Translations under genes and position numbers: made by a program
Notes under the pieces: generated by a model
What the model saw: the letters and a program-made list of their open reading frames with translations, nothing else
Told to the model about the DNA's origin: nothing
The model's database searches: none
Virus record (IMG/VR): IMGVR_UViG_3300042860_003432
Source of the DNA: an uncultured virus (IMG/VR IMGVR_UViG_3300042860_003432)
Taxonomy: Duplodnaviria > Heunggongvirae > Uroviricota > Caudoviricetes
Reading direction: 5' to 3' (one strand)
DNA: 64,000 nucleotides
In this document: piece by piece, positions 43,459 to 58,428 of the stretch
Numbering within the stretch: position 1 is the stretch's first letter
Layout of the letters: every line of letters starts with the position of its first letter

Positions 43459-44175
43459 TTAAAACTTGACGGTAACAAATCCACCAAGCCAACTATTGTT
43501 GGTTGTGACAGAGTTGTTGAGGTAGTTATGGCGATAGCCAGCACCAACAACAACATTCTTGGCTTCATACACCAAGTCCAGTTTACCAGTTAGGTAATAA
43601 TACGAATCCTTGACTGGGCCACCACGGCGCTCTGGTAGAGCATCCTTGGCACCAACCCATCCAAGAGTAGCAGCAGGAACCAGCTTGAATCCCTTGGCGA
43701 GCAGGAAGAGGTTGATTGGCTGGCTGAGAGAGCCTTCAGCAAACACCTGACGCAGATTCAGGTCATATCCTGCTGCTACGGTTGGGCTCAAAAAAGCATC
43801 GTAAGCCAGAGATCCGAACACTTCAACACTATAATTTGTTTCGCCCTTTGCTGGTGCAGCCTTGGGGTAAAAATATCCCACGCCACCAACCTTGAGTGTA
43901 GTTGCCTTGTCAATAGTATATCCTTGAGTCAAGGCCACATCAAGTTCACGAACGGTTGTATTTAGATTATCAAAATCCCATAGACCGACGACACTCAAGC
44001 TGGTCTTAGATGGTAGATTGACGGTGACTTCGGAAGTACCTACATTGGTTCCTCCAGCTACACCACGAAATACATAGTCACTCTCAAATCCAGCAGTAGC
44101 CGATACTGTCTGGGAGAAAGAAACTGATGTGATCGCAATCAATCCTACGATTAGTTTAGTAATATATTTCTTCAT
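43459..44175 (-). CDS. outer-membrane beta-barrel protein (TorF/TIGR02001-like)
   Basis: Sec signal peptide, ESDYVFRG, alternating beta-strand pattern, C-terminal Phe. Confidence 0.75.
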   Translation of the reverse strand: MKKYITKLIVGLIAITSVSFSQTVSATAGFESDYVFRGVAGGTNVGTSEVTVNLPSKTSLSVVGLWDFDNLNTTVRELDVALTQGYTIDKATTLKVGGVGYFYPKAAPAKGETNYSVEVFGSLAYDAFLSPTVAAGYDLNLRQVFAEGSLSQPINLFLLAKGFKLVPAATLGWVGAKDALPERRGGPVKDSYYYLTGKLDLVYEAKNVVVGAGYRHNYLNNSVTTNNSWLGGFVTVKF

Positions 44176-44265
44176 ATTTATTTTATATTTAGTTATTATT
44201 CTTCACGGTTTTCGCAAAGTACCGATAACTATATGATATAAAATCTTTTATGTCAATATATAAAA

Positions 44266-44646
44266 TGGTGGACGTGAGGGGAGTTGAACCCCTGTGCTGT
44301 ATAATATAACTACAACCATATACATGCTTATCTCTTATAATCCGACTAAGTTTGGTAGAGCACCACTTAGAAGTTGAGGACTCGTGTTTCTCGCTGTTGT
44401 TACGACCCTCGTCCTTACAACAGCAAGCAGATGGTCGAGCGTTTTATTCTATATATCTGCGTCAATAGATAAAACGGGTAGCAACTTAGGCTACAGCAAC
44501 TTCGCTCTTACGGCTTACGCTTAGGAACGATGTCTTAGCAAGATTTCTCTTAGCATTTATTTTTTCCAACGGGTATTATACAGAGACATTAGACTCTGTG
44601 CATGCGGACTGCATCTACACTATATAGTAGAATCCAGAACACGCCC
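44266..44646 (-). ncRNA. ssrA: tmRNA
   Basis: 5' GGGCGUG pairs with 3' CACGUCC-A-CCA including G3:U70; T-arm GGGGUUCAACUCCCC; tag frame 44554..44486 encodes AKRNLAKTSFLSVSRKSEVAVA*. Confidence 0.93.
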
Positions 44647-44660
44647 ATAATAAAAAATAG

Positions 44661-44838
44661 AAAACGTGTAGGGGCTAGGTGTTTGGGCACCGGCACCGGA
44701 AATACATTCGGGTATTTCATCCTATCCCAACAACTTCGGCTATTTAGACAAGAATAAAACTTGATGCCTACTATGATGTTATGTGAGAATAGTCGCAAGT
44801 TTTACAAACAACGACTCTTTTAACTACCCTACACGCTT
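44661..44838 (-). ncRNA. candidate structured ncRNA (~175 nt), family unknown
   Basis: Closing stem CGTGTAGGG/CCCTACACG, internal hairpins, lies between promoter+boxA and the tmRNA. Confidence 0.55.
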
Positions 44839-44848
44839 CTAAAAGTGA

Positions 44849-44858
44849 TTCAAAGAAC
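44849..44858 (-). promoter_or_regulatory. boxA-like antitermination motif
   Basis: GTTCTTTGAA directly downstream of a TTGACA promoter. Confidence 0.55.
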
Positions 44859-44973
44859 GACAACTATAATTATCTAGATATATGGTCTTGTCAATACTTT
44901 TTATTTCAGGAAATTTTTATAAAAATTATATTCTGGTTGACATATACAATACTTAGAATAATATTTTATTTTT

Positions 44974-45327
44974 ATGTATAAACTATTTCTTGATGATGTA
45001 AGAGAACCAGAACAAGTGACTTGGGTAAAACTACCAGATGGTCCTTGGGAAATTGTGCGTAATTATGATCAATTCGTTGAGCATATCTCAAAGAATGGCA
45101 TTCCATCGTTTGTTGCCTTTGATCACGACCTTGCAGAAGAGCATTATGGTGCCAATCCAAGAAGTGAATTCAAAGAGAAAACGGGATATCATTGTGCCAA
45201 GTGGCTGATTGAAAAGTGTATGAATGAAGACACAAACTTTCCACACTATGTTGTTCATAGCATGAACCCAGTAGGAAAGATGAATATTACCAGTTTGGTT
45301 GAAAACTTCAAGAACACCATCAAGTGA
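44974..45327 (+). CDS. cyclic-phosphate-processing receiver-like domain protein
   Basis: LFLDDVR, FDHDL, KTGY.CAKWL, VHSMNPVG; TTGACA-N16-TAATAT upstream. Confidence 0.8.
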   Translation: MYKLFLDDVREPEQVTWVKLPDGPWEIVRNYDQFVEHISKNGIPSFVAFDHDLAEEHYGANPRSEFKEKTGYHCAKWLIEKCMNEDTNFPHYVVHSMNPVGKMNITSLVENFKNTIK

Positions 45328-45974
45328 AAAAGATCAGCCTTAAAAGTGCAGACCAAAAGATGTGGTTTGTTTCCGATCTGCACCTTGGTCATAACAAGCC
45401 ATTCATTCTTGGCCCAAGAAACTATTCCAATATAAATGAAGCATACGAACATACGCACAAAATGTTGGACGAACATATCGGACCAAATGACATTGTGTTT
45501 AATCTCGGTGATGTTGTGATTGGTGCATTTGATAATTCTCTAGCGTATGCCAAAAGAATTGTGCATATTCCGTGCAAACATCAGTATTTTATTTGGGGAA
45601 ATCATAATGCCGGAATTCAACAGATATACGACGATTATAGAAAAGAACTAGGTTTATTGGCGGATGATATTGAAATGTATCCTCTCACAATTCCAAACAC
45701 AAACTTTACTTTTCTAGGACATTATGCAGAAATAAGTATAGACACCAAAAAAGTTGTTCTTACCCATTATCCAATTGCTTCGTGGCACGGCATAAGTAAA
45801 GGTGCTTATAATATCCACGGTCATTGTCATAGAAATTTAAAGGAAGATCTTTCTCTTGCTAGACTTGATGTTGGTTGGGAATGGAAGAGACGCCCCGTGG
45901 AATGGAGCGAAATTGTAGAAGAATTAAGTCCAAGAAAAACGATTCCTCCAGATCATCATGGTAAAGATGAATAA
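45324..45974 (+). CDS. calcineurin-like metallophosphoesterase
   Basis: SDLHLGH, LGD, GNH, THYP, HGHCH, DVG. Confidence 0.9.
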   Translation: MKKISLKSADQKMWFVSDLHLGHNKPFILGPRNYSNINEAYEHTHKMLDEHIGPNDIVFNLGDVVIGAFDNSLAYAKRIVHIPCKHQYFIWGNHNAGIQQIYDDYRKELGLLADDIEMYPLTIPNTNFTFLGHYAEISIDTKKVVLTHYPIASWHGISKGAYNIHGHCHRNLKEDLSLARLDVGWEWKRRPVEWSEIVEELSPRKTIPPDHHGKDE

Positions 45975-45979
45975 AATTT

Positions 45980-46462
45980 ATGAAAAAACTAATACACAAG
46001 GATGGCAATCTACTTACTGCAACAGACGTTGAAGTAATTGCTCATCAAGCCAACTGCCAAAACATATTTGGCGCAGGTATTGCTAAGAGTATAAAAGAAA
46101 TGTATCCCAAGGCATATCACGCAGATAGTATGGCATACAAGGATGGCAAAGCAGTGCTTGGAAGTTATAGTTTTTGTCATATGAATGGCAATCCTTTCAA
46201 GAAGATATTCAACCTATATGGGCAAAACTTGTATGGCTCAAAAACCAGAATGACAAACTACAATGCGTTGTATGATTCTCTTGAAGGAATGAAAAACTAT
46301 CTAGTAGAGAATGATGAAGATTTACCAGTTCCAAATATTGGATTTCCATATCTTATGGGATGTGGCCTTGGAGGCGGCGATTGGAGAATAGTAGAAAGAT
46401 TGATTGAAGTTGCCTTTCACAATTATGAAGGTGATATAATAATCTATAAATTCAAAGGATAA
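45980..46462 (+). CDS. macro domain protein (ADP-ribose binding/hydrolase)
   Basis: GNLL, IAHQANC, GAGIA, NLYGQ, P..MGCGLGGGDW. Confidence 0.9.
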   Translation: MKKLIHKDGNLLTATDVEVIAHQANCQNIFGAGIAKSIKEMYPKAYHADSMAYKDGKAVLGSYSFCHMNGNPFKKIFNLYGQNLYGSKTRMTNYNALYDSLEGMKNYLVENDEDLPVPNIGFPYLMGCGLGGGDWRIVERLIEVAFHNYEGDIIIYKFKG

Positions 46463-46463
46463 T

Positions 46464-46497
46464 AAAAAAGCCCCGAGAAATCGGGGCTTTTGTTTTT
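46464..46497. terminator. bidirectional intrinsic terminator
   Basis: aaaaagccccga-gaaa-tcggggcttttgttttt between convergent genes. Confidence 0.85.
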
Positions 46498-46512
46498 AGT
46501 AAATTTACTTAT

Positions 46513-47199
46513 TTACCAAGTAACAGTTACCATTCCTGCACCACCGGTTCCCTCGGTTTTGACAGGAGTACTGCTTTCTCCGGAGTATCCGCCGCCACCA
46601 CCGCCGCCCGGCAAATCACCATCGGTTGCGGTGATGAGTCTTGAACATGGACCTGCATCGTAATATGCAGCATTTCCACCGTTTCCGCCGCCCGCTGCTG
46701 CTCCAGATGCACCAAGAGATCCGGTTGGAGAGTGACCAAATTGGGAGAAAGATGCACCCGTGTCCAATCCATCTCCTGCGGCGATTCCATTTCCTAGCCC
46801 GCCAGCCGCTGATCCGCCGCCAGCAGCGCCATAATTTCCATATGCGCCCAAGAATGTTCCTCCTGTTCCTCCTGTGTATTTTGTACTTCCGGTGTTAAAT
46901 GCCGTTTGACCGGTAATTGTTCCGTCGGATCTTCCTCCAGCAGCCTGAAGACGAATTACGCTGGCAGATATAAAATTGGATACTCCACCATTTCCAAGAC
47001 CATCGGAGTTTGGTACACCGACATTTATTGTGTACGATCCAGATGGAACCGTAAACGCTATTGTTGCATAAGAAGCACCGGATCCCCCAGTACCGTTAGT
47101 ATTTCCGTTTCCACCGGCTCCCCAGCACGAAGCAGTAACGTTTCTCAGAGATTCTGTGACGGCTAATGTTCCGGATGTATAGTATGTTGTTGTAGGCAT
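46513..47199 (-). CDS. glycine-rich protein (tail-fibre-associated type)
   Basis: WGAGG, GGSGA, GGGGGG, GAGMVTVTW motifs. Confidence 0.7.
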   Translation of the reverse strand: MPTTTYYTSGTLAVTESLRNVTASCWGAGGNGNTNGTGGSGASYATIAFTVPSGSYTINVGVPNSDGLGNGGVSNFISASVIRLQAAGGRSDGTITGQTAFNTGSTKYTGGTGGTFLGAYGNYGAAGGGSAAGGLGNGIAAGDGLDTGASFSQFGHSPTGSLGASGAAAGGGNGGNAAYYDAGPCSRLITATDGDLPGGGGGGGYSGESSTPVKTEGTGGAGMVTVTW

Positions 47200-47286
47200 A
47201 ATTTATGATATGATTATTGTTCAGTTATAATTATAATATAGTTTCAATAAAACTTAACTTTTGTCGTATATACGAAATATTCTACT

Positions 47287-47694
47287 TTATGGTAAGTTTT
47301 TGTCTGAAATATCTAACGGAGTTGGCGTGACTTCTGGGGATGGAGGTGGGTTTGCCCACGGAGGAGGTAAATACGCAATTGGAGGATTTATCATGTTTTC
47401 TATTTGCTGATTAATATCCGCTTGCATCTGACTTAACTTATCTGGCCCTATAGATTCTTCGACCCACTCTTGAACCATAGCTTCTGTGAGTTGTTCGTAT
47501 GGTATAAATGGACGACTGCCGGAAACGAATGGAGCAATTGTTTGTGCACCGAATGTTTGGTGGCTATAGCTACTAGATACAACCTCTCGTGTTCCAGTAT
47601 AGTACCAATGTACTACATATACAACGTTTTCTAATCCATTTTGTTGTGTATATGTTTGCAGTGTAGGAAATGTCCAAGCGTATGTGGTTGCCAT
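47287..47694 (-). CDS. phage protein, probably tail-fibre associated
   Basis: TYAW..., VVHW, FIPYEQLTE..V.EWV, C-terminal Pro-rich. Confidence 0.65.
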   Translation of the reverse strand: MATTYAWTFPTLQTYTQQNGLENVVYVVHWYYTGTREVVSSSYSHQTFGAQTIAPFVSGSRPFIPYEQLTEAMVQEWVEESIGPDKLSQMQADINQQIENMINPPIAYLPPPWANPPPSPEVTPTPLDISDKNLP

Positions 47695-47724
47695 AAGTTT
47701 AATTTTTTAAGTTTTATATAATAA

Positions 47725-48579: not shown

Positions 48580-48600
48580 ATCTATAAATATAAAGATATA

Positions 48601-48629
48601 AAAAAAGAGGGTGGAGAAATCCACCCTCT
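48601..48629 (-). terminator. intrinsic terminator
   Basis: aaaaaagagggtgga-gaaa-tccaccctct. Confidence 0.75.
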
Positions 48630-48850: not shown

Positions 48851-50350
48851 CTAACCTATGACTGAAAGCTTGAGGTTTCGTATCAACACATCATTCTTGA
48901 AGTTTACAAGTTTGAGTTGAAGTTCGAACTTATCGCCGTTTGGTATAACTTCTTTCATCTTTCCAAGATGTCCAACAGTCATAGTAAATGAGTGTGTAAT
49001 GGTTTTGTTTGTTGTACTCGGATCTCCATCCATTATCTTTACTCGACCAATATACTTTCCATTTACATATGCTTTGATGGCACATTTTCCAACGTGAAAT
49101 ACTGGTCCTGTTTCTATTTCCAATAATGATGTTCCGCCGTCTATTGCCTTACTAATCAAATCTTTTAACGTATTTTGCGGGCGAACATACAAAGATAACC
49201 CTTCACGTACTGTAGCATATTGATTTATTGGAGCAGATACACTGGCGTAGTTTGTTGATACGCTTGTGGGAACAGTCAAATTATTATCGGATGGTACAGC
49301 ATATGATACTGTGTTCATCTTTGTCATAATATCTTTGATTGTTACAGTAACAGGAGAACCATCAATGTCTGGGAATGTATATACTTGTTGACCCCACGGA
49401 CCATCAAGATCTGGCATTGGATTTCTGTATAGTGAGAATATGCGATCTATATTTCCGTGATGCATAAAGAATATAGGATCATTTGCCGCATATCTTAGAG
49501 TTCCCATATTACGATTCTTACCATAACGAGTACCTACCCAATCGTGGCCATCATTGTGTGGTCCAGATTCCACCAACCCTTGGCCAGTTGCTCTATCTGT
49601 AACAGGCTTCCCGCCAAATTGTTCCCAAGGGGTTGTAAGAACAAGATTGATATATTCTGGACTCATATAGTTTTTGCACTCTTGAACGTGAGCTTTTGAA
49701 TCTTGTGAAACTTCGTTGTTTGGATCCATTTTGCTCTTTTGTATTGTTGGTCCACGATTTCCGTCAAACAATGCAATGTTGTCAAATCCAAGATTATCGG
49801 CGTTTACCATATTCTCTTGAGTAAGATCATATCCAAACAGCGGACTCGCCAAACCTCTTGCTTCACGTTCTTTTGTGTTTGGTATTTCTTGATGTGCACA
49901 CCAATCCCAGAATGGATATGCAAAGGGTACACCGTTGTATCCCAACTTATCCAAACAGTTTGCGAGTATTCTTTCTAAGAAGAAAATATAGCCACGATGC
50001 CAAGGTAGAAAATGCCAACCCCAATGTACTTGAGGGTTTGCTGCATCCGAAGCTGTGCAGTGTTTCATATGAATATTTGCATATGATTCCCATTGGGTAG
50101 GTGTTCCCATAGGAAGAGTATTTCGCATATAGTCAACTGCTTTACACAGCGTTCTTACTTCTTCGTCGGTAAGATCATAAAAGCTTTTGCGAACTCTGTT
50201 TGGTTCTTTTCCAAATACAAAAGGTTTTGCGTTTGGATCACACAGTTCAACGGGCTTATTTATTCCACCCGGTTGAGCCGAATTCAATGTAGCTACACTG
50301 GTCAACCCGATGGCACCAGTACCAATAAATTTTCTTCTTGATATTTTCAT
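48851..50350 (-). CDS. Tat-exported tyrosinase/polyphenol oxidase (type-3 copper)
   Basis: SRRKFI twin-Arg signal; CuA H...QVHWGWHFLPWHRGY; PFWDW; CuB PHNDGH...DPIFFMHHGNIDRI; C-terminal beta domain. Confidence 0.9.
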   Translation of the reverse strand: MKISRRKFIGTGAIGLTSVATLNSAQPGGINKPVELCDPNAKPFVFGKEPNRVRKSFYDLTDEEVRTLCKAVDYMRNTLPMGTPTQWESYANIHMKHCTASDAANPQVHWGWHFLPWHRGYIFFLERILANCLDKLGYNGVPFAYPFWDWCAHQEIPNTKEREARGLASPLFGYDLTQENMVNADNLGFDNIALFDGNRGPTIQKSKMDPNNEVSQDSKAHVQECKNYMSPEYINLVLTTPWEQFGGKPVTDRATGQGLVESGPHNDGHDWVGTRYGKNRNMGTLRYAANDPIFFMHHGNIDRIFSLYRNPMPDLDGPWGQQVYTFPDIDGSPVTVTIKDIMTKMNTVSYAVPSDNNLTVPTSVSTNYASVSAPINQYATVREGLSLYVRPQNTLKDLISKAIDGGTSLLEIETGPVFHVGKCAIKAYVNGKYIGRVKIMDGDPSTTNKTITHSFTMTVGHLGKMKEVIPNGDKFELQLKLVNFKNDVLIRNLKLSVIG

Positions 50351-50387
50351 AACCTATATAACTATAACTATAAAAAATAACAAAATA

Positions 50388-50996
50388 TCATCTAACTACT
50401 AAACTTGTAGTTTCACTTTTTACAAGTCCAGCAGTATTGCGTGCTTCTACTTTATAGTTTCCTGAATCAGCAGTTGTAATATTGGCTAGTTTTAGGCTTG
50501 CATTTGTTTTTCCCGCTAAAACTACATTATTTTTATACCAAGTAAATCTCAACGGTCCAGTTGCAGCAGCATCAACATTTGCTTTTATAGTAATATCATC
50601 GCCAACATATGCATCTGCTTGCAAACTATATAAATCACCTTCAAGCAACCAAAAGTTTCTGCTTATTCTGGTTAGTTTCCATTGCGAACCCATTTTTCGC
50701 GTTCTAAAAGCATCATCCGATTGTAGTATAATAACACCGTTTTCTCCAACAATATTTATTGTACCATCCGATAATGCTGTGCCATATATTTCTGTGCCTG
50801 TGCCAAATACATTAGTTCTTTCAAATGGCACAACAAATCTAACCGTTGAGTTATTTGGCGTCTGCATCGCAATCAAATAACCAGAATCTCTGTTTGTTAT
50901 TTTATATTCGGTGCTTGTGCTTATGGTTTTTACATCCAAAGCATATGATGTAAGAGCAACTGTCAAGAATGTCAGTAATAGAAATATCTTTTTCAT
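50388..50996 (-). CDS. secreted protein with C-terminal immunoglobulin domain
   Basis: Signal peptide; FTWYKN...L.L.NIT.ADSGNY.V.A.N..G. Confidence 0.8.
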   Translation of the reverse strand: MKKIFLLLTFLTVALTSYALDVKTISTSTEYKITNRDSGYLIAMQTPNNSTVRFVVPFERTNVFGTGTEIYGTALSDGTINIVGENGVIILQSDDAFRTRKMGSQWKLTRISRNFWLLEGDLYSLQADAYVGDDITIKANVDAAATGPLRFTWYKNNVVLAGKTNASLKLANITTADSGNYKVEARNTAGLVKSETTSLVVR

Positions 50997-51113
50997 ATAC
51001 CGTATAAATATAATATATACGGTATGAAAATATTATAAACCGTTGATTAGTTTCTAATCATACTGATTTTCACGCCACTAATATATGGCGTGAATAATCA
51101 AACCTCAATAATT

Positions 51114-51449
51114 TTATCCGCGAATAATTTGGATTCTAACCTGATTAGGAGCAACTGGCGTAACAACAACAATAGCAAGAGGATCGCTATCAGCAGTGCC
51201 CCAGTTATTGGTTGCACGAAGCTTGTATGTGCCAGCATCTGTTAGAGCAATGGCATTGAATACAAGATTTGCACCAGTAGCAACTTGAACATCATTCTTG
51301 AACCACGCAAATGTGATTGGAGTTGTGCCCTGTGCTTCACCAGCAAGTGTGATTTTTGTGCCAGTATATTCTGTTGATTGTGTTTGAGCAAACAAACTCG
51401 TAGCTGAAACTAACAACGCTAAAATGCCTGAGACTAGTAGTTTTTTCAT
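51114..51449 (-). CDS. secreted single immunoglobulin-domain protein
   Basis: Signal peptide; GT.PITFAWFKN...DAGTY..RATNNWG. Confidence 0.8.
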   Translation of the reverse strand: MKKLLVSGILALLVSATSLFAQTQSTEYTGTKITLAGEAQGTTPITFAWFKNDVQVATGANLVFNAIALTDAGTYKLRATNNWGTADSDPLAIVVVTPVAPNQVRIQIIRG

Positions 51450-51697
51450 AATTTATGGATTTTATCTTTCAACCATAAATATCTTCGTATATATGAAAAA
51501 CGTATATATAAAAACTCATTGGAAAAATTCACCAGCGATGTATTACACCAGCAATAATAAACATATTGGTGACGATGTAAAAAAGTACAATGAGCGTGCG
51601 AACAAATGCAACTTTATCTGCTTCACAATTATCTTCACTTGCTTTTTCACCAAGTGATTTTGCCCATATTCTCCAAAATGATTTTAGCATAAATTAT

Positions 51698-51794: not shown

Positions 51795-52370
51795 TTAAAC
51801 TCTTCCCTTAGTAAAACCTTTTGGTATTGGGTCGCTTTTGGGAACTAACTTACTTATTTTTCCATCAGTAATCCAATGCTTTCCATAAGATGGATTATTT
51901 TTTCCATCCACTTTTCCTTTTCTCGACTCGCTAATTTTTTTCTTGGTTTCTTCTTTGTGCTTTCTTCCTTTCCAACCGTTACCACCGATACTCATTTTAT
52001 ATAAGTGAAGTCTTGCTCTGTTTTTTTCTGCAAACTCTTCTCTCCACACAGGATCATTTTCTCTTAACCATTTTATTTTTTTTCTCGCGAAATCTATATC
52101 TCCGACTCCCCCCAAACTAACATTATACGTATCGTCTCTTGCTATAAATTCTTGATCTACAATGTCCGCTTCTTTTTGCCACATTTCTTTTTCGGAAGAA
52201 CATTCTGTTATTATTTCTTTCTTAAAGAAATCTCTTCCATATTTTTTAATGGCACGCATAATTAGCACTCCGGAACCAAGATAAGAATCTTCTTTGTTTA
52301 GAGTTTTGTGTGCTCCTATATAAATTTTATTATTAATCGTGTTGGTAATTTTGTATATGATGTAATGCAT
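51795..52370 (-). CDS. GIY-YIG homing endonuclease (Seg-like, NUMOD3)
   Basis: IIYKITN..N.KIYIG, YLGSG, E..., YN, KGRKHKEETKKKISES; free-standing between tRNA genes. Confidence 0.9.
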   Translation of the reverse strand: MHYIIYKITNTINNKIYIGAHKTLNKEDSYLGSGVLIMRAIKKYGRDFFKKEIITECSSEKEMWQKEADIVDQEFIARDDTYNVSLGGVGDIDFARKKIKWLRENDPVWREEFAEKNRARLHLYKMSIGGNGWKGRKHKEETKKKISESRKGKVDGKNNPSYGKHWITDGKISKLVPKSDPIPKGFTKGRV

Positions 52371-52427
52371 ATACAAATAAATATAGTCCAAGTCGGAAAA
52401 AACAATGAACTCGGACTTATTATATGA

Positions 52428-52708: not shown

Positions 52709-52710
52709 AA

Positions 52711-52754
52711 TTCAAAGAACACCTATACTCTACACACTTTATTTATTTCGTCAA
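52711..52754 (-). promoter_or_regulatory. sigma70-type promoter plus boxA-like motif for the tRNA operon
   Basis: TTGACG-N16-TAGAGT followed by TGTTCTTTGAA directly before tRNA-Leu(UAG). Confidence 0.65.
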
Positions 52755-53087
52755 GAACTTTCTGCGATAAACTGCATATCCCAATCCAATCATTCCTGCA
52801 AACAATGCATATGTAGACGGTTCAGGTACAGCAGGACCGCAATAATCTTTATCATAACCACCTCCACCGCCATAATATGGACGCTTGTATTTATCGTCAT
52901 CATCGTCATCATCTTCATCGTCATCATCCCAATCATAACTGCTGCTCATACTAATCATCTGCACAGGGTCTGTATATGACGGCTGAAATGTGCTCATAAT
53001 ATCATAATTACCAAAATCTACAACAGAGTCATTGGCAAAAATGCCGCTAACAAACATAGTAAAGATAAACAATAGTTTCTTATTCAT
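52743..53087 (-). CDS. PEP-CTERM sorting domain protein
   Basis: Signal peptide, poly-Asp tract, C-terminal VPEPSTYALFAGMIGLGYAVYRRK. Confidence 0.9.
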   Translation of the reverse strand: MNKKLLFIFTMFVSGIFANDSVVDFGNYDIMSTFQPSYTDPVQMISMSSSYDWDDDDEDDDDDDDKYKRPYYGGGGGYDKDYCGPAVPEPSTYALFAGMIGLGYAVYRRKFLTK

Positions 53088-53153
53088 ATGCTATAACTAT
53101 ACAGGTTTTTATGCTATACTCAAGCATAAAATCTATAATAAGTAATAATACGG

Positions 53154-53600: not shown

Positions 53601-53656
53601 AACTACGGTTAGTGTTAATATTTATGTAAATTTTTACAGATTAAAAAACCAGTTCA

Positions 53657-54169: not shown

Positions 54170-54173
54170 ATAA

Positions 54174-54248
54174 TGGTAGTGGGTGCGGCGTTTGAATCCG
54201 CTATCTTGGCTTATGAGACCAGCATTATACCACATTAATTAACCCACC
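54174..54248 (-). tRNA. tRNA with CAU anticodon (Met or Ile2), atypical and possibly degenerate
   Basis: Acceptor GGTGGGT/ACCCACT-A-CCA, loop CTCATAA; weak D arm and mismatched T stem. Confidence 0.7.
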
Positions 54249-54257
54249 CTAACAATT

Positions 54258-54351
54258 TGGTAGTCCCAGAGGGAATCGAACCCCCGCTCGGCACTAATCA
54301 GGTGCGCACAGTTTATAAGGCTGTCGGTGCTTCCAGTTACACTATGGGACC
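54258..54351 (-). tRNA. tRNA with UAU anticodon (nominally Ile) and long variable arm
   Basis: GGTCCCA/TGGGACT-A-CCA; ACAGC-CTTATAA-ACTGT; V-arm hairpin GCAC-CTGATTA-GTGC; TTCGA. Confidence 0.8.
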
Positions 54352-54401
54352 AAATCAACTAACAATGGCTAGTATGGATATTTTCTATCAGAAGTCAATA
54401 A

Positions 54402-55394
54402 CTATTTTTCAATTAAGTTTTGTTTGAATATTTTCCAGCAATTTTCCCAAGTCCAATATGAACCATTCATCGCGACTATATCACGGTTTAGTTTTAGCGA
54501 TTTGTTGATACAATCTTCAAGATTATCTCCCATATATCCAGTCAACCCATCTTGAACAATATCTATTGGACCAGAAACGGGATATGCGGCTATTGGCGTG
54601 CCTAAACTCATTGCTTCTATCAAAACTATACCAAATGTGTCTGTTTTGCTGGGAAAACAAAATACATCTGCGTTTATATATTCATTTGCTAAATCTTTTC
54701 CGGTTTTGTATCCAAGGAACTTTACATTTTTATATTTTTTCTCTAAATGTTTTCTATATGGACCATCACCAACCAAGCGAACTTCATATTTGTCTTGTAG
54801 AACACACAAGTCATCCAGATTTTTTTCAAGGGATATTCTGCCAACATATAACACAACAGGAACTTCATTATTTTTTCTTTGAGTTGTTGGCGTCAGCAGA
54901 TTCTTATCAACTCCTCTTGTCCATATAACCATCTCAACGTCAAAATTGTTTTTACTCAGTTCATTCATCATTGACTTGGTAGTAACCAATACTCTACCAG
55001 AATGTTTATGAAACCATCTTACATAAGAATATGTGATACACTTTGGTATTTTATACATTTCATTCACATACTCTGGAAACTTTGTATGATATGAAGTGTT
55101 GTATTTGTATTTCTTACTATCACAATATAGTTTGGCAAAAAGTCCAAGCGGGCCTTCTGTAGAAATATGAATATAATCTGGATTGTATTCTTCTATCTTT
55201 TTTCCTAATCCAAATGGCAGGCTCATTTTTACTTCCGGATATCTTGGCATACTAAAATGCTTATACATTTCCGGTGAAATAAAGCATACCGTATGTCCAT
55301 CATTTTCCGCCTGTATCTTTATATTCTTGTATGTAGTTACAACGCCATTTATTTGCGTGAAAAGATTATCCGTTACTATTAGTATCTTTTTCAT
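54402..55394 (-). CDS. GT4 glycosyltransferase, Agt-like (diacylglycerol glycosyltransferase)
   Basis: ILIVTD...QINGVVTT, HISTEGPLG, TSYHTKFPEY, WTRGVD, YVGRIS.EKN, PSKTDTFG.V.IEA, AAYPVSGP. Confidence 0.8.
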   Translation of the reverse strand: MKKILIVTDNLFTQINGVVTTYKNIKIQAENDGHTVCFISPEMYKHFSMPRYPEVKMSLPFGLGKKIEEYNPDYIHISTEGPLGLFAKLYCDSKKYKYNTSYHTKFPEYVNEMYKIPKCITYSYVRWFHKHSGRVLVTTKSMMNELSKNNFDVEMVIWTRGVDKNLLTPTTQRKNNEVPVVLYVGRISLEKNLDDLCVLQDKYEVRLVGDGPYRKHLEKKYKNVKFLGYKTGKDLANEYINADVFCFPSKTDTFGIVLIEAMSLGTPIAAYPVSGPIDIVQDGLTGYMGDNLEDCINKSLKLNRDIVAMNGSYWTWENCWKIFKQNLIEK

Positions 55395-56133
55395 TGTAGT
55401 GTATCAACTCAAATGTTCCATTGTGATGCTCTACTATGGCGGTCAATGATTCTACCCAATCGCCGCAGTTCATATAATGAACATCATTTATATGTTTCAT
55501 TTCTGGATGATGTATATGACCGCATATTACGCCAACATATCCTTTTCTTTTACAATGATTAGATATATTAGTCTCAAACTTGAATATAAAATCAACGGCC
55601 TTTTTGACGCGATGCTTCAAAAACTTGCTGAAACTCCAATAACCAAATCCAAGTTTATGTCTTATCCAGTTATATTTTGTATTTAGGGCAAGAATAAAAT
55701 CATAACTTTTGTCTCCAAGAAAACTAAGCCACGGAGCCAATCTTGTTATACCATCAAATAAATCTCCGTGAACAACAAGATATTTTTCACCATATACACT
55801 AATATGTTCTATTTCATTACATAACTTGATGTTTCCTACTTCAAGTTCATATGGCAGCATCAATCTGAAAAACTCATCGTGATTGCCAATAACATATACT
55901 ATTTTGGTATCATTACGATGTAGTTTCAACAATCTTCTGATTACTTCAGAATGGCTGTTTTTCCATTTTGACCTGTTTTGTTGAAACTTCCAACCATCTA
56001 TGACATCACCGACGAGATAAAGAGTCTCGCAACTGTTACATTTTAGAAAATTTTCTACCTCTTTCGCCTTGCTATTTTTAGAACCGAGATGTAGGTCGGA
56101 TATAAAAATAGAGCGATATTTAGGTAGTTTCAT
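55366..56133 (-). CDS. PlcP-like metallophosphoesterase (LpxH/UDP-2,3-diacylglucosamine hydrolase superfamily)
   Basis: YRSIFISDLHLG, LYLVGDVIDGW, GNHDE, HGDLFD, YWSFS...K.RVK.AV, ICGHIH, NCGDWVES.TA.VE. Confidence 0.8.
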   Translation of the reverse strand: MKLPKYRSIFISDLHLGSKNSKAKEVENFLKCNSCETLYLVGDVIDGWKFQQNRSKWKNSHSEVIRRLLKLHRNDTKIVYVIGNHDEFFRLMLPYELEVGNIKLCNEIEHISVYGEKYLVVHGDLFDGITRLAPWLSFLGDKSYDFILALNTKYNWIRHKLGFGYWSFSKFLKHRVKKAVDFIFKFETNISNHCKRKGYVGVICGHIHHPEMKHINDVHYMNCGDWVESLTAIVEHHNGTFELIHYNEKDTNSNG

Positions 56134-56385
56134 TTAGTCCGCTTTATCTCCAAACATGAACTTGTTGGCAATAACATCTATGTTATGAAATGCTATGCTA
56201 ACCTTATCTATAATCCAAGGATCTAACTTTACAGTTTCACTTGCCATAATCTCTTTTATACGCTTACACTTTTCTTCTATGGCAGTTAGTTGATATTCAA
56301 TCATATCCTGCTGGCGTTCTGGATTTAATGTTACCATTTCATCCATTACTTCTTTGATAAGGTCTTTGAGTTCTGATTTTTTCAT
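56134..56385 (-). CDS. hypothetical protein
   Basis: Start MKKSELKDLIKE at 56385 after TATATTTATT. Confidence 0.6.
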   Translation of the reverse strand: MKKSELKDLIKEVMDEMVTLNPERQQDMIEYQLTAIEEKCKRIKEIMASETVKLDPWIIDKVSIAFHNIDVIANKFMFGDKAD

Positions 56386-56411
56386 ATAATAATAAATATA
56401 TACACATAAAC

Positions 56412-56438
56412 AAAAACCCAGCATTTACGCTGGGTTTT
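56412..56438 (-). terminator. intrinsic terminator
   Basis: aaaaacccagc-attta-cgctgggtttt downstream of the FHA-like gene. Confidence 0.7.
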
Positions 56439-56463
56439 CGTGAGTTGATATATATTAACTATA

Positions 56464-58428
56464 TCAAGGCTTTGGAGGCAGGAATGTGCCTGTACCAGCA
56501 TTGACTGGATATACTCCACTCAAGTTGGTAGCAAAACTCAATGCACTCAAATCTGTTACTCCCTTGGCATTGAACGTAAGTGCCGAGGTCTTTAGCAGAT
56601 TGGATAGTGTAATATTTCCGCCAGCAGTTAGTGTTAGAGCACCAACCAACGAGTTTGTAGAAGCGGCAGAAGTATTGAAAATATCTCCACCACTTACAAC
56701 GCTGGTAGTTCCACCGTTCAATGAACCAATGTTTGTACTATTGAGTTCATTTAGGTTGATTGCTCCAGTGCCAGCAGCGACTGACACCAATCCAAAGTTG
56801 TTGTTTGGTTGAGTCAGGCTAACTTCAGCATTATTGGTATTGACGACCAAGTTTCCACGAACATCCATAGAAGTTGTAGGAACTTGAGTAACTGCTGCTC
56901 CAGCAATACCTGTGGTAGAAACGGTAAGGTTTCCGCCAACATTAGTCGTACCAAGCGAAGTAGCACGAGCCTGTGTCAGTACCGCATCAGTTGTAGCAGT
57001 TAGTGTAACATTTCCGAGGTTGTTTAGACCGGCGGGATCGTTAAGATTTACATTTGTCGCAGTAAGATTGCTTGCGCCAGCAGTAACGCGGCTAGTAGCG
57101 AGCAATTGCACAATGTCATTCTTACTTGTGGCAACCAGATTGCCAGTTACAGCAACACGGTTTAGGTTGAGTGTAGCGTCCTCAACGATAGTAGCATTAC
57201 CACGAACATCAAGGCTTACTGGACCAAAACTATGCTTTGCACGAGCAATATTGACATCACCAGTTGTAACAAATGATGTCGGACCGTACACGAACTGCTT
57301 TTCTGCTGTATCAACTACAGTAGGAGCGGTAAATGTAGTATTACCAGAACTTCCCAAGGCAACGCCAGTCAAGGCGATGCGGGACAGTGCCGTTACAGTT
57401 GTATCACCAGTTCCGCTGTTAGTAACATTGGCAAGAGTAACCGCACCACCACCAAGAGTGATGTTGCCAGCCGCCATTACATTATAGTTTGTAGAAGCGG
57501 CGGTACTTGCAGCAACAATGTTATTGCCACTAACCGTAACATTTGTGCTGGTCAAGCGTGGAAGCGAAACATCCTTACCAGAGACAGTCAGGTTTGTTAC
57601 GTTGAGCGTACCAGTACCTTGTGTGACAGCACCAGCGGTCAAAGCGCCAGTAGCATTGATGGTGATATTTCCAGTAGAAGTAATAAAGCCGTTAGGAGCA
57701 ATGATTACATTTCCGCCGGAAGTATTGATGTCGGTCTTGCCATTTAGCACAGCAGGAGCAGCAAAACTGGAACCCAGAACGGCATTACCGCCGTATGTAT
57801 TGACTACAAGATTTCCAGTAACAATGGCACCTCCAATGTTTGTGTTACGAGAAGCAATGGTAATGTTCTCCGAAACTGCCTGCAACACCGCGCCATCAGT
57901 AACGGTTACTCCATTTGTGAGAACGCTCGTGGGCAGGTTGTCTTGGCTGGGCAACTTTGCGTTGGTATTCCAGTATCCAAGAGAAACAGTAGGATCGTCA
58001 ACGGTGCTGACGTATAATCCAGCAACATTGATGGTGCTAGTACCACCGATAAGTACGCCGTTTGGATTTAGAATGAACACTCGTCCATTCGACTCGATGG
58101 CACCGTTGATGGTGCTGGCTGCTCCACCGGAGACGATATTCAGCACAGACGAGTTGGTTGCAGGCAATGTGTATTCAATGCGCTGACCGGCGTCAATCGT
58201 GTTCGTTCCACTGCCAAAAGCCTGCCAGTTAAGCACAGCCTTGTTTGGTGCAGAAATGCTCAGTGTGTTTGCAGTTCCATTTACTAAAACACCCGCTGTC
58301 GTTTGTAGATTGGTGGCGTCGATGCTCGGAAGAGCAAAGACATGCGCCACGGCGAATACAAACACCATCAACGAAGACAATGTCTTCGTCCACAGCGAGT
58401 TATTATGTGTATTTTTATTGTATTTCAT
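56464..58428 (-). CDS. filamentous-haemagglutinin-like beta-helical exoprotein (TPS N-terminal domain)
   Basis: Signal peptide; AVLNWQAF, SVLNIVSGG..S.ING.IESNGRVFILNPNGVLIG; T/N/G/V-rich repeats. Confidence 0.85.
   Translation of the reverse strand: MKYNKNTHNNSLWTKTLSSLMVFVFAVAHVFALPSIDATNLQTTAGVLVNGTANTLSISAPNKAVLNWQAFGSGTNTIDAGQRIEYTLPATNSSVLNIVSGGAASTINGAIESNGRVFILNPNGVLIGGTSTINVAGLYVSTVDDPTVSLGYWNTNAKLPSQDNLPTSVLTNGVTVTDGAVLQAVSENITIASRNTNIGGAIVTGNLVVNTYGGNAVLGSSFAAPAVLNGKTDINTSGGNVIIAPNGFITSTGNITINATGALTAGAVTQGTGTLNVTNLTVSGKDVSLPRLTSTNVTVSGNNIVAASTAASTNYNVMAAGNITLGGGAVTLANVTNSGTGDTTVTALSRIALTGVALGSSGNTTFTAPTVVDTAEKQFVYGPTSFVTTGDVNIARAKHSFGPVSLDVRGNATIVEDATLNLNRVAVTGNLVATSKNDIVQLLATSRVTAGASNLTATNVNLNDPAGLNNLGNVTLTATTDAVLTQARATSLGTTNVGGNLTVSTTGIAGAAVTQVPTTSMDVRGNLVVNTNNAEVSLTQPNNNFGLVSVAAGTGAINLNELNSTNIGSLNGGTTSVVSGGDIFNTSAASTNSLVGALTLTAGGNITLSNLLKTSALTFNAKGVTDLSALSFATNLSGVYPVNAGTGTFLPPKP

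What the first reader, a model, noticed from the sequence alone, without database searches (positions are those of the whole stretch)
43459..58428. Kit of host-envelope proteins using several different host export routes
Seen, interleaved with phage tRNAs and several preceded by the recurrent ATA(T/G)TTAT motif: an OM beta-barrel (Sec/Bam, 43459), a Tat substrate (48851), two secreted Ig-domain proteins (50388, 51114), a PEP-CTERM protein (exosortase route, 52743) and an FHA-like TPS-domain exoprotein (56464). No exosortase or TpsB is visible in the window, so host machinery is probably used. Inference: a coordinated programme that resurfaces the infected cell (superinfection exclusion, aggregation toward new hosts, grazer avoidance or nutrient uptake). 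Together with PlcP-Agt and the glycan island, this is my best candidate for an undescribed system.
Basis: partly seen in the sequence, partly recalled or inferred. Interest (0 to 1): 0.8.

Follow-up and report, generated by a model that had tools for sequence, protein, structure and literature searches.

The report
Phage genes for exported envelope proteins
A giant lake phage carries six separate genes for proteins that the infected bacterium must export by its own machinery; they look like a late-expressed set of independently gained surface genes, not one built-in system.

Summary
All six genes exist at the stated coordinates and carry the stated signatures: a 12-stranded outer-membrane porin, a Tat-signal tyrosinase, two secreted Ig-domain proteins, a PEP-CTERM protein and a TPS-domain exoprotein. 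No TpsB, Omp85, exosortase or TatC was found in five related phage records, two of them complete. The closest cellular relatives are Verrucomicrobiota, mostly Opitutaceae, whose genomes hold TpsB and exosortases.

The ATA(T/G)TTAT motif is real and orientation-specific. In a complete relative it precedes tail sheath, tail tube and portal genes, so it is probably the late promoter. All six genes belong to this promoter class.

The genes are not one module. They are interleaved with unrelated genes and are gained and lost singly among relatives.

The most striking member is the orphan TpsA. It occurs in 26 viral loci and behaves as an allelic cassette: 68-80% nucleotide identity inside 97-100% identical flanks, with dN/dS 0.14.

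Functions are inferred, not shown. My verdict is a new variant of a known kind, phage-borne envelope genes, of moderate interest.

The parts
43459..44175 (-). 238-aa outer-membrane beta-barrel porin (TorF/Gcw_chp-like, 12 strands) with an N-terminal leader and a C-terminal Phe
   Evidence: PF09694 25.1 bits. AF2 pLDDT 83, 12 strands. Foldseek NanC/PcoB/KdgM. The nearest named ESM Atlas cluster is a Verrucomicrobiota TorF porin, alongside many viral clusters. 17 of 61 Opitutaceae-family genomes hold a homologue at 23-34% identity. An RNA-library contig with 0 differences covers 43723-44058.
44225..44232 (-). Promoter-like motif ATAGTTAT, 57 nt upstream of the porin start
48851..50350 (-). 499-aa pre-pro-tyrosinase: twin-arginine leader, type-3 copper core and a C-terminal extension
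   Evidence: PF00264 119.9 bits. RR-x-F and the copper histidines are invariant in 9 of 9 phage homologues. PDB matches include the V. spinosum core tyrosinase 8bbq, E 1.5e-11. The three-part layout matches vsTyr (PMC10526336, passages read). 15 viral loci hold a homologue.
50358..50371 (-). Two overlapping ATAGTTAT motifs, 21 and 15 nt upstream of the tyrosinase start
50388..50996 (-). 202-aa secreted two-domain protein: leader, unnamed beta-sandwich repeat domain (residues 18-122) and an Ig domain (residues 125-202)
   Evidence: Pfam Ig_3, I-set and Ig_2. AF2 pLDDT 88.9. The N-domain matches the phage Pa223 capsid-spike distal domain, Z 13.5. The N-domain has 73 relatives, up to 21 copies in one protein. 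5 of 6 fetched homologues keep a leader.
51004..51011 (-). Motif ATATTTAT, 15 nt upstream of the Ig202 start
51114..51449 (-). 111-aa secreted single Ig-domain protein, a paralogue of the Ig domain of Ig202 (37% identity)
   Evidence: Ig_2 38.4 bits. Paralogy. An RNA-library contig with 1 difference covers 51108-51315.
51475..51482 (-). Motif ATATTTAT, 33 nt upstream of the Ig111 start
52743..53087 (-). 114-aa PEP-CTERM protein: leader, poly-Asp stretch, Gly/Tyr-rich stretch, PEP motif, transmembrane helix, RRK
   Evidence: PF07589 22.1 bits and TIGR02595 21.9 bits. Sequence read.
53093..53100 (-). Motif ATAGTTAT, 13 nt upstream of the PEP-CTERM gene start
54402..56133 (-). Overlapping PlcP-like metallophosphoesterase (55366-56133) and GT4 glycosyltransferase (54402-55394). 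They lie inside the finding's range but carry no export signal and no motif.
   Evidence: Pfam and NCBIfam. PlcP is 42-52% identical to a homologue found in 52 of 61 Opitutaceae-family genomes and 42-50% identical to Alphaproteobacteria. GC is 33%.
56134..56424 (-). Small conserved ORF directly downstream of the TPS gene; part of the conserved hyp226-TPS-hyp96 synteny
56464..58428 (-). 654-aa orphan TpsA-type exoprotein: extended leader, TPS domain with NPNG motif, beta-helix repeats (DUF5649). It behaves as an allelic cassette.
   Evidence: PF05860 60.8 bits. PDB HxuA/HMW1/EtpA. 33-41% identity to Opitutae TpsA N-termini. 26 viral loci. Identity drops to 68-80% exactly over the ORF, with dN/dS 0.14. 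RNA-library contigs from two studies cover parts of it.
58478..58485 (-). Motif ATATTTAT, 57 nt upstream of the TPS start
58986..59666 (-). 226-aa conserved ORF upstream of the TPS gene; no leader and no family match; motif 15 nt upstream
   Evidence: 76-78% identical in relatives whose TPS is only 38-39% identical. No Pfam or NCBIfam match.

Best explanation
The region is a flexible accessory stretch of a T4-like jumbo phage of about 300 kb. The phage probably infects Verrucomicrobiota, most likely an Opitutales-like lineage.

The stretch holds at least six separately promoted genes whose products must leave the cytoplasm through host machinery:
- a 12-stranded porin (Sec, then BAM);
- a pre-pro-tyrosinase (Tat);
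- two small Ig-type proteins (Sec);
- a small acidic PEP-CTERM protein (Sec, then exosortase);
- an orphan TpsA exoprotein (Sec, then the host TpsB).

Shown: the domain and signal content; the lack of the matching machinery in complete relatives; its presence in candidate hosts; a shared promoter-like motif; and gain and loss gene by gene.

Inferred: the motif tATATTTATa is the phage's late promoter. The six proteins would then be made together with virion proteins and would change the periplasm, the outer membrane and the surroundings of the cell late in infection and at lysis.

The set is a collection of independently acquired envelope genes that share a timing class. It is not one machine. 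The likeliest roles, all inferred, are as follows:
- The TpsA, Ig and PEP-CTERM proteins occupy or mask surface structures. This would prevent superinfection and stop progeny being lost on debris, or it would promote cell-cell adhesion.
- The porin adds a solute channel.
- The tyrosinase oxidises phenolic compounds in the periplasm or after release. The 61 Opitutaceae-family genomes searched had no homologue of it.
For: Domains and signals.

Phage identity: a clamp-loader A subunit, a T4-type RNA ligase, a glycan island and a tRNA block. The window is collinear with 89-154 kb of G002, a 297-kb record rated complete; 65 of 105 ORFs match.

Machinery absent from the phage: ShlB, exosortase, Omp85 and TatC gave no significant match in 5 of 5 records.

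Host link:
- 11 of 12 genome hits for the TPS family are Verrucomicrobiota, and 10 of those carry Opitut* labels.
- TpsB and three exosortases each were found in 5 of 5 such genomes.
- The porin's nearest named Atlas cluster is Verrucomicrobiota.
- The Ig domain matches giant proteins in 56 of 61 Opitutaceae-family genomes.
- Two high-GC Verrucomicrobiota contigs carry tyrosinases 47-49% identical; neighbours were scanned on both, and on one (L066) they match cellular families.

Motif:
- It is enriched and orientation-specific: 43 against 13 genes in G002 and 16 against 3 in the window. ATATTTAT ranks first of the 56 words of equal composition.
- In G002 it precedes tail sheath, tail tube, portal, a tail-spike-like gene and a baseplate hub gene.
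- It hardly overlaps a TTGACA-type promoter class: 0 genes have both in the window and 2 in G002.

Selection for export: leaders are conserved in TPS homologues, porin homologues, tyrosinase homologues and Ig202 homologues.

Functionality: dN/dS is 0.14 for the TPS alleles.

Transcription hint: RNA-library contigs with 0-1 differences lie on the porin, tmRNA, tyrosinase, Ig111 and TPS genes.

Independent histories: the presence/absence matrices.
Against: - The host call is indirect. The phage has 37.8% GC against 56-67% in the Opitutae loci, and identities to host proteins are only 23-48%.
- No spacer-like match was found with window 1-20000 in 401 Opitutales genomes.
- The donor of PlcP is ambiguous.
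- The 'late' label for the motif rests on gene identities in one relative, not on expression data. The motif also precedes tRNAs, homing endonucleases and a nucleotidase.
- The RNA evidence comes from assembled contigs of RNA libraries, so DNA carry-over is not excluded.
- Both domains of Ig202 resemble capsid spike or decoration domains, which fits a virion role.
- No function was tested.
Confidence: 0.6

Rival explanations
1. One coordinated system. The six proteins would act together as a dedicated programme that resurfaces the infected cell, would be selected as a set and would depend on each other.
For: All six share one promoter class. They lie within 15 kb. Five of them co-occur in the same order in the genus-level relative G004. 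A Gly/Tyr-rich PEP-CTERM protein lying next to a tyrosinase could be an enzyme-substrate pair (sequence).
Against: The same motif precedes virion genes and 10 other ORFs in the window. The genes are separated by tRNAs, a GIY-YIG endonuclease, an exonuclease and kinase-like genes. G002 keeps only the tyrosinase and TPS. G003 keeps the tyrosinase and weak porin-like genes. G004 and G005 lack the tyrosinase but keep the Ig and PEP-CTERM genes.
Confidence: 0.12
2. Virion-associated proteins. The Ig proteins would be capsid decoration or spike parts, and the TPS protein a beta-helical fibre with the small downstream ORF as its chaperone. The late motif would reflect a structural role.
For: The Ig202 N-domain matches the phage Pa223 capsid-spike domain (Z 13.5, rmsd 2.0 over 97 residues). 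Its Ig domain matches N4, Moo19 and RB49 Hoc capsid proteins at 25-29% identity. The motif is shared with structural genes. The TPS gene evolves like a receptor-binding protein, as an allelic cassette, and is followed by a small conserved ORF.
Against: Hydrophobic leaders are conserved in Ig202 and TPS homologues. The TPS secretion motifs, including NPNG, are invariant in 14 of 14 sequences. Differences between TPS alleles are spread evenly and the C-terminus is the most conserved part, unlike receptor-binding tips. In G002 the region lies among replication, nucleotide and tRNA genes, while the motif-preceded genes that PHROGs matched to virion parts lie at 16-23 kb and 271-293 kb. Export signals would take the proteins away from the cytoplasm, where heads and tails are assembled (established knowledge).
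Confidence: 0.15
3. Export-route decoys. The small PEP-CTERM protein and the cargo-less TpsA would be substrate mimics that saturate the host exosortase and TpsB. This would stop display of the host's own surface proteins rather than add new functions.
For: The mature PEP-CTERM protein is only about 65 residues of low-complexity acidic and Gly/Tyr sequence. The phage TpsA is 654 aa, against 1591 aa for one host neighbour, and no effector domain was detected. The machinery is the host's.
Against: The whole 654-aa TPS protein is under purifying selection (dN/dS 0.14), not only its secretion domain. No direct evidence exists.
Confidence: 0.08
4. Passenger DNA. The genes would be recently captured host fragments without function for the phage.
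For: The TPS and porin genes have higher GC (46-47%) than the window (37.8%). Gene content in this region is patchy.
Against: The ORFs are intact in all high-quality relatives. The TPS family occurs in 26 viral loci and the tyrosinase in 15. dN/dS is 0.14. Promoter motifs are conserved upstream of the G002 orthologues. RNA-library contigs cover several of the genes.
Confidence: 0.05

Closest known systems
Phage-encoded outer-membrane and exclusion proteins: lambda Lom and Bor, the PA-2 Lc porin, T5 Llp, T4 Imm and Sp (recalled, not from a call)
   Same: Phage genes whose products are exported by host pathways into the envelope of the infected or lysogenic cell. Several block receptors or superinfection, and Lc is a porin.
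   Different: Here a lytic-type jumbo phage of a presumed Verrucomicrobiota host carries six such genes. They use Tat, TpsB and exosortase routes as well as Sec and BAM. All six lie in the probable late promoter class. No function has been shown.
Two-partner secretion exoproteins (TpsA: FHA/FhaB, HMW1, HxuA, EtpA)
   Same: Leader plus a TPS domain with an NPNG motif and a beta-helical body. The protein passes the Pfam and NCBIfam cut-offs and matches HxuA, HMW1 and EtpA in the PDB.
   Different: No tpsB partner gene was found in the window or in complete relatives. The protein is short (654 aa) and no effector domain was detected. It is encoded by a phage and conserved in 26 viral loci. Its alleles are exchanged as a cassette.
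Verrucomicrobium spinosum pre-pro-tyrosinase, vsTyr (PMC10526336, passages read; PDB 8bbq)
   Same: A Tat leader, a type-3 copper core and a C-terminal extension in one chain without a caddie protein.
   Different: The sequence match is distant (E 1.5e-11 to the core). The gene is phage-borne and conserved across a jumbo-phage clade. It was not found in 61 Opitutaceae-family genomes. The inhibitory role of the extension was not tested here.
PEP-CTERM/exosortase sorting (family names from Pfam and NCBIfam; biology recalled)
   Same: A C-terminal PEP motif, a transmembrane helix and a basic cluster, plus an N-terminal leader.
   Different: The gene sits in a phage with no exosortase. The mature part is a tiny acidic, Gly/Tyr-rich peptide. 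My one search for PEP-CTERM together with 'phage' and 'Verrucomicrobia' listed 4 papers, none on the subject by title and abstract start; I opened none.
KdgM/NanC-type 12-stranded monomeric porins and TorF-family putative porins
   Same: A predicted 12-strand barrel of similar size, a leader and a terminal Phe. It passes the Pfam Gcw_chp cut-off, marginally.
   Different: Sequence identity to solved porins is 8-14%. It misses the NCBIfam TorF cut-off. The substrate is unknown.

Membership tests
TpsA exoprotein (two-partner secretion, type Vb) | N-terminal Sec leader | tested here: met
   A hydrophobic stretch at residues 15-33 follows a polar extension. It is conserved in 14 of 14 aligned homologues. 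I used my own crude heuristic, not a trained predictor.
TpsA exoprotein (two-partner secretion, type Vb) | TPS domain with the conserved NPNG-type motif | tested here: met
   PF05860 60.8 bits (cut-off 33.5) and TIGR01901 60.2 bits (cut-off 29.1). L120, N121, P122 and G124 are invariant. PDB matches are HxuA, HMW1 and EtpA.
TpsA exoprotein (two-partner secretion, type Vb) | Cognate TpsB (Omp85/ShlB) transporter encoded with it | tested here: not met
   No ShlB or Omp85 match over the cut-off in G001-G005, including two complete genomes. Candidate host genomes have TpsB in 5 of 5, adjacent to tpsA in L024.
TpsA exoprotein (two-partner secretion, type Vb) | Secretion across the outer membrane through TpsB | not testable with these tools
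   Needs expression and fractionation in a host.
PEP-CTERM protein | C-terminal PEP motif, transmembrane helix and basic cluster at the very end, plus an N-terminal leader | tested here: met
   PF07589 22.1 bits (cut-off 20.7) and TIGR02595 21.9 bits (cut-off 16) at residues 86-110 of 114. Leader.
PEP-CTERM protein | Exosortase in the same genome | tested here: not met
   PF09721 gave 0 matches in 5 phage records. It gave 3 matches in each of 5 Opitutae genomes.
Tat-exported tyrosinase (vsTyr-like pre-pro-enzyme) | Twin-arginine motif before a mildly hydrophobic stretch | tested here: met
   SRRKFIGTGAIGL at residues 4-16. R5 and F8 are invariant, and RR is kept in 9 of 9 sequences.
Tat-exported tyrosinase (vsTyr-like pre-pro-enzyme) | Type-3 copper centre with six histidines in a tyrosinase core | tested here: met
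   PF00264 119.9 bits. H94/H97, H109, H118, H265, H269 and H297/H298 are invariant.
Tat-exported tyrosinase (vsTyr-like pre-pro-enzyme) | Inhibitory C-terminal extension with a gatekeeper residue | tested here: inconclusive
   About 150 residues follow the core and are alignable among the phage homologues. Homology to the vsTyr extension and the gatekeeper residue were not examined.
Outer-membrane beta-barrel porin (TorF/Gcw_chp; KdgM/NanC fold) | Family profile match | tested here: inconclusive
   Pfam 25.1 bits against cut-off 24: passes. NCBIfam TIGR02001 17.6 bits against 47.15: fails.
Outer-membrane beta-barrel porin (TorF/Gcw_chp; KdgM/NanC fold) | Closed beta-barrel with a leader and a C-terminal aromatic residue | tested here: met
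   AF2 pLDDT 83, 12 strands. Foldseek NanC E 3.4e-7, PcoB and KdgM. F238 is kept in at least 90% of 22 sequences.
Single multi-gene system (operon-like module) | Members adjacent, co-transcribed and co-inherited | tested here: not met
   The genes are interleaved with unrelated genes and tRNAs. Each has its own upstream motif. Presence and absence vary gene by gene.
Single multi-gene system (operon-like module) | Common regulation | tested here: inconclusive
   All 6 have the motif within 60 nt upstream. The motif is generic to some 45 genes of G002, including virion genes. No expression time course exists.

The most novel reading that the evidence does not exclude
The hyp226-TPS-hyp96 unit is a phage-borne 'orphan TpsA' cassette. 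The phage makes a TpsA late in infection and has it threaded through the host's own TpsB pore, where it plugs or masks that pore. This would stop superinfection and keep progeny from adsorbing to debris, or it would glue cells together. Its alleles would be swapped between otherwise identical phages under frequency-dependent selection, to match variants of the host pore. That would be the first case of a virus using type Vb secretion. Together with the PEP-CTERM, Tat and BAM clients, it would show that phages of Verrucomicrobiota routinely load late cargo onto every host export route.
Probability: 0.2. Interest if true: 0.75.

Novelty: new variant of a known kind. Interest (0 to 1): 0.55.

Why it matters
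Phage genes that alter the host envelope are known mainly from coliphages and from lysogens. Here a lytic-type jumbo phage of a hardly studied host phylum carries clients for five export routes. These include an orphan TpsA family conserved in 26 viral contigs, a PEP-CTERM protein, and a Tat-tyrosinase not found in the 61 genomes searched of the presumed host family.

If these proteins are exported as predicted, three things follow. They give handles for host prediction, because the host must own a TpsB and an exosortase. They are candidates for exclusion or adhesion functions in lake bacteria. And they add a new kind of auxiliary function, periplasmic phenol oxidation in humic lakes.

The sharply bounded allelic replacement of the TPS gene marks it as a locus under an arms race and makes it worth an experiment.

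Tried and rejected
- T4 late promoter: TATAAATA is enriched (17 matches against 8.1 expected), but its coding-strand matches do not sit before the six genes. None of the 105 window ORFs has it within 60 nt upstream. I dropped it in favour of ATATTTAT(A).
- Pseudogenes in G004: the split TPS and porin ORFs there looked like decay. Nine genes of that locus show frame changes, so I read them as assembly errors.
- DGR-type hypermutation of TPS: rejected. The differences run along the whole 2-kb gene and dS is about 1.08.
- Porin in G002: a 237-aa ORF at the matching position, with a leader and a terminal Phe, shows no significant similarity (BLASTP E 0.48, no Pfam match). The porin profile also found nothing in G002. 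Homology is therefore not shown.
- Host by DNA match: window 1-20000 against 401 Opitutales genomes gave matches only to window 775-880, a low-complexity stretch that lies inside ORF 423-923. The ORF's product found no protein-level match in the four fetched loci. Only a third of the window was tried.
- Tyrosinase donor: I first took all 7 genome hits for mis-binned phage contigs. GC content and neighbouring genes show that at least one high-GC Verrucomicrobiota contig (L066) looks cellular.
- RNA runs: bins without cover (45.0-48.9 kb except a trace at 45.7-46.3 kb, and most of PlcP/Agt) are not evidence of silence. The very high depth at 52.86-53.5 kb is low-complexity cross-matching.
- Phage collection megablast: no match.
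- Earlier scan notes: none.
- Literature: searches on phage PEP-CTERM, phage tyrosinase, phage PlcP, phage TpsA and jumbo freshwater phages, plus term look-ups in two papers, found no description of these genes. I saw only listings and passages.

Full report
**What the window is.** The 64-kb window has 33-43% GC and most ORFs lie on the minus strand. Pfam finds a phage clamp-loader A subunit, a T4-type RNA ligase, nucleotide-metabolism genes and a long sugar-modification island at 17-36 kb. ARAGORN finds 13 tRNAs and a tmRNA. Rfam confirms the tmRNA at 90.7 bits and lists 15 tRNA matches in 42-64 kb, and nothing in 1-42 kb.

The window's own assembly is not held. The nearest record is a 60-kb IMG/VR fragment, G001. 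The window is collinear with 89-154 kb of G002, a 297-kb viral record that CheckV rates 100% complete. Of my 105 ORFs, 65 have a tblastn match there, typically at 55-85% identity. The window is therefore part of a T4-like jumbo phage of roughly 300 kb. Eighteen runs labelled 'lake water metagenome' (kind listed as 'DNA?') hold at least 97% of the sampled words of 48.8-58.5 kb; 17 of them are marked as possible sources of this DNA.

**The observation.** All six ORFs are present and each carries the claimed signature.
- The 238-aa protein at 43459-44175 just passes Pfam Gcw_chp (25.1 bits, cut-off 24) but fails the NCBIfam TorF model (17.6 against 47.15). An AlphaFold2 model built on 22 sequences has pLDDT 83 and 12 strands. 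Its best Foldseek matches are the 12-stranded porins NanC (E 3.4e-7), PcoB and KdgM. It has a leader and ends in Phe.
- The 499-aa protein at 48851-50350 is a tyrosinase (119.9 bits) that starts with SRRKFIG. In an alignment of nine phage homologues at 48-63% identity, the RR-x-F motif and the copper histidines are kept in all nine. The layout of Tat leader, core and C-terminal extension matches that described for the Verrucomicrobium spinosum enzyme (PMC10526336, passages read; PDB 8bbq, E 1.5e-11).
- The 202-aa and 111-aa proteins have leaders and Ig domains.
- The 114-aa protein passes both PEP-CTERM models.
- The 654-aa protein passes the TPS models and matches HxuA, HMW1 and EtpA in the PDB.

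**The machinery.** None of the 66 window ORFs that I scanned matched a TpsB or exosortase family. In five related records (G001-G005; G002 and G003 complete), ShlB, Omp85, exosortase and TatC gave no match over the cut-off. The single ShlB hit scored 11.7 bits, below the cut-off.

**Host and donors.**
- *TPS.* A profile of the TPS family found 12 loci among representative genomes of 185,579 species. Ten carry Opitutus, Opitutaceae, Opitutae or Opitutia labels, one is 'Verrucomicrobia bacterium' and one is Chlamydiae. They match the N-terminal 120-610 residues at 33-41% identity. Five of five such genomes hold a TpsB, adjacent and divergent to a 1591-aa TpsA in L024. The same five hold three exosortases each. 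One of them has PEP-CTERM proteins over the cut-off.
- *Porin.* Its nearest named Atlas cluster is a Verrucomicrobiota TorF porin, next to many viral clusters. Seventeen of 61 Opitutaceae-family genomes have a homologue at 23-34% identity.
- *Ig202.* Its Ig domain matches repeats in giant proteins of 56 of 61 such genomes at roughly 30-48% identity among the 150 matches listed.
- *Tyrosinase.* It was not found in those 61 genomes. Two Verrucomicrobiota MAG contigs at 62-64% GC carry homologues at 47-49% identity. Neighbours were scanned on both; only L066 gave matches, a cytochrome c/HEAT protein and an alpha/beta hydrolase, which looks cellular. Other hits carry Thermoleophilia, Solibacteraceae, Bacteroidota, Flavobacterium and Chlamydiae labels. 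Three of these have 32-35% GC and may be phage contigs binned by mistake.
- *PlcP.* It is about equally close to Opitutaceae (42-52% identity, 52 of 61 genomes) and to Alphaproteobacteria (42-50%).

The donors thus point mostly to Verrucomicrobiota but are not one lineage. The host call is weakened by the GC gap of 37.8% against 56-67%. No spacer-like DNA match turned up in the one 20-kb piece I tried.

**The motif.** ATAKTTAT occurs 34 times against 15 expected, and 0 of 100 shuffles reached 34. Within 60 nt upstream of ORF starts it is found in the coding orientation before 16 window ORFs, against 3 for its reverse complement. In G002 the figures are 43 against 13. ATATTTAT ranks first among the 56 words of equal composition (37 genes, median 4). 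The consensus is tATATTTATa.

In G002 the motif precedes genes that PHROGs matches to tail sheath, tail tube, portal, a tail-spike-like protein and a baseplate hub/lysozyme. It also precedes the orthologues of the tyrosinase, the TPS gene and the glycine-rich gene. A second class, TTGACW-N15-19-TAnnnT, precedes 7 window ORFs, among them a metallophosphoesterase, an IMPDH/GMP-reductase-family gene, a dUTPase, the RNA ligase and cREC. It never coincides with the motif in the window and does so twice in G002.

I infer that the motif is the late promoter of this phage clade. All six genes belong to this class, but so do 10 other window ORFs and the virion genes. In 13 of 43 G002 cases the motif starts 12-16 nt before the ATG. 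This leaves no room for a leader and suggests leaderless late mRNAs, which is also an inference.

**One system or a collection?** The genes are separated by tRNAs, a GIY-YIG endonuclease, a DEDD exonuclease, an APS-kinase-like gene, PlcP/Agt and others. Presence across relatives is gene by gene.

| Relative | Content |
|---|---|
| Same or near-identical strains (L003, L009; L004, L005, L008, L010) | All six genes |
| G005 | Porin, Ig202, Ig111, PEP-CTERM, TPS and PlcP/Agt; no tyrosinase in 73 kb |
| G004 (genus-level relative; many frame errors in nine genes) | TPS, PEP-CTERM, Ig111, Ig202 and porin in the same order; no tyrosinase in the record; PlcP/Agt not found in its 22-kb locus L007 |
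| G002 | Only tyrosinase (62%) and TPS (38%); an unrelated-looking 237-aa leader-bearing ORF at the porin's place |
| G003 | Tyrosinase and two weak porin-like genes; no TPS |

G002 carries other envelope genes instead: a FecR-like protein, a CHASE2-cyclase, a glycine-zipper lipoprotein and a secreted nuclease. The clade thus habitually carries exported proteins, but the set turns over. That fits independent acquisitions sharing a timing class, not a machine.

**The TPS gene.** The protein search returned 138 relatives at E <= 0.001 among the 8000 candidates scored. Most of the 120 listed are 616-689 aa with the TPS domain. A profile scan found 26 distinct IMG/VR loci. In ten of them (L080-L089) the order hyp226-TPS-hyp96 is kept, followed by the APS-kinase-like gene in nine. 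There hyp226 is 76-78% identical but TPS only 38-39%.

Between near-identical strains, nucleotide identity is 97-100% on both sides of the gene and falls to 68-80% exactly over the ORF. The amino-acid changes are spread evenly at 79% identity. dS is 1.08, dN is 0.155 and dN/dS is 0.14. This is an old, functional allele moved in by recombination, the pattern of loci under frequency-dependent selection.

The leader and the secretion motifs are invariant in 14 of 14 sequences. I read this as selection for passage through a TpsB rather than for a structural beta-helix in the particle.

**The Ig proteins.** The Ig202 model (pLDDT 88.9) has two beta domains. Residues 18-122 match the distal domain of the Pseudomonas phage Pa223 capsid spike (VIA Z 13.5, rmsd 2.0 over 97 residues, 8% identity). 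Residues 125-202 match Ig domains, among them capsid proteins of N4, Moo19 and RB49 Hoc at 25-29% identity.

The N-domain has 73 sequence relatives at E <= 0.001. It occurs up to 21 times in one 3206-aa protein and has no Pfam name. These folds keep a virion role possible. Against that, five of six fetched homologues keep a hydrophobic leader.

**Expression.** Two metatranscriptome runs from different studies hold assembled contigs on this stretch. Run X20 has pieces with 0-1 differences on the porin, tmRNA, tyrosinase, Ig111 and TPS genes. Run X19 has pieces of a related strain on the porin, tmRNA and TPS genes. These are contigs, so they show presence in an RNA library, not level, strand or start, and DNA carry-over is possible.

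**Verdict.** The motif, however, is a general and probably late promoter, and the genes do not form one co-inherited system.

The functions are inferred. I favour surface masking, exclusion or adhesion for the TpsA, Ig and PEP-CTERM proteins, a solute channel for the porin, and periplasmic or post-lysis phenol oxidation for the tyrosinase. Confidence in any single role is low.

I rate the finding as a new variant of a known kind, phage-borne envelope genes. The orphan, cassette-like TpsA family and the phage Tat-tyrosinase are the parts most worth follow-up.

My literature searches (term look-ups) found no description of phage-borne PEP-CTERM, TpsA, tyrosinase or PlcP genes. The library holds open-access papers only, and I read only listings and passages.

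Noticed in passing
window 44266-44646 (-): A phage-encoded tmRNA (Rfam 90.7 bits; ARAGORN tag peptide AKRNLAKTSFLSVSRKSEVAVA) lies between the porin gene and the cREC gene. RNA-library contigs from two studies cover it.
   Followed up: partly
window, upstream of ORF starts; G002 (L043-L057): There are two promoter-like classes that hardly overlap: TTGACW-N15-19-TAnnnT before metabolic genes, and tATATTTATa before virion and accessory genes. In 13 of 43 G002 cases the second motif starts 12-16 nt before the ATG, which suggests leaderless late mRNAs.
   Followed up: partly
window 58986-59666 (-) and 56134-56424 (-): Two ORFs without any family match flank the TPS gene and stay syntenic with it in ten related loci. 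hyp226 is 76-78% identical where TPS is only 38-39% identical. Their link to the TPS protein (modifier, chaperone, or none) is open.
   Followed up: partly
window 52743-53087 (-): The mature part of the PEP-CTERM protein is a poly-Asp run followed by a Gly/Tyr-rich stretch. This is the kind of sequence a tyrosinase could cross-link, and the tyrosinase gene lies 2.4 kb away. The two genes do not always co-occur in relatives.
   Followed up: no
window 44974-46462 (+): A plus-strand trio sits in the middle of the region: a cREC receiver-like domain, a metallophosphoesterase and a Macro/DarG-like protein (NF048014, E 5e-13). It could be a counter-defence or nucleotide-signal-degrading set.
   Followed up: no
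window 54402-56133 (-): The PlcP-like phosphoesterase overlaps a GT4 glycosyltransferase by 29 nt. Their GC is 33%, below the window mean. They are present only in the closest strains. One Opitutaceae-family genome (L072) has a GT4 gene (27% identity) next to its PlcP.
   Followed up: partly
window 10899-12014 (-): A 371-aa ORF has a lipoprotein-type leader (LTGC) and two C-terminal hydrophobic stretches. It is another likely envelope protein, outside the finding's range, with no Pfam match at the E <= 1e-4 limit used.
   Followed up: no
L047:246-4763 and L057:2943-3737 (record G002): The complete relative carries other exported or membrane proteins: a FecR-like protein, a CHASE2-adenylate/guanylate cyclase, a glycine-zipper lipoprotein and a secreted non-specific endonuclease.
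   Followed up: partly
window 51795-52391 (-): A GIY-YIG/NUMOD3 homing endonuclease lies among the tRNA genes. The sister strain has a copy only 47% identical at another site.
   Followed up: no
window 54177-54248 (-) and 63749-63822 (-): Two further Rfam tRNA matches (42 bits each) were not called by ARAGORN. The first overlaps the annotated start of the 192-aa ORF, whose true start is probably further downstream.
   Followed up: no
L007 (record G004): Nine genes of this 22-kb locus are broken by frame changes. The record probably carries assembly indel errors, so split ORFs in it should not be read as pseudogenes.
   Followed up: yes
window 56464-58428 and 43459-44175: The TPS and porin genes have 46-47% GC against 37.8% for the window. 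This is compatible with capture from a GC-rich donor and incomplete adjustment to the phage's composition.
   Followed up: partly
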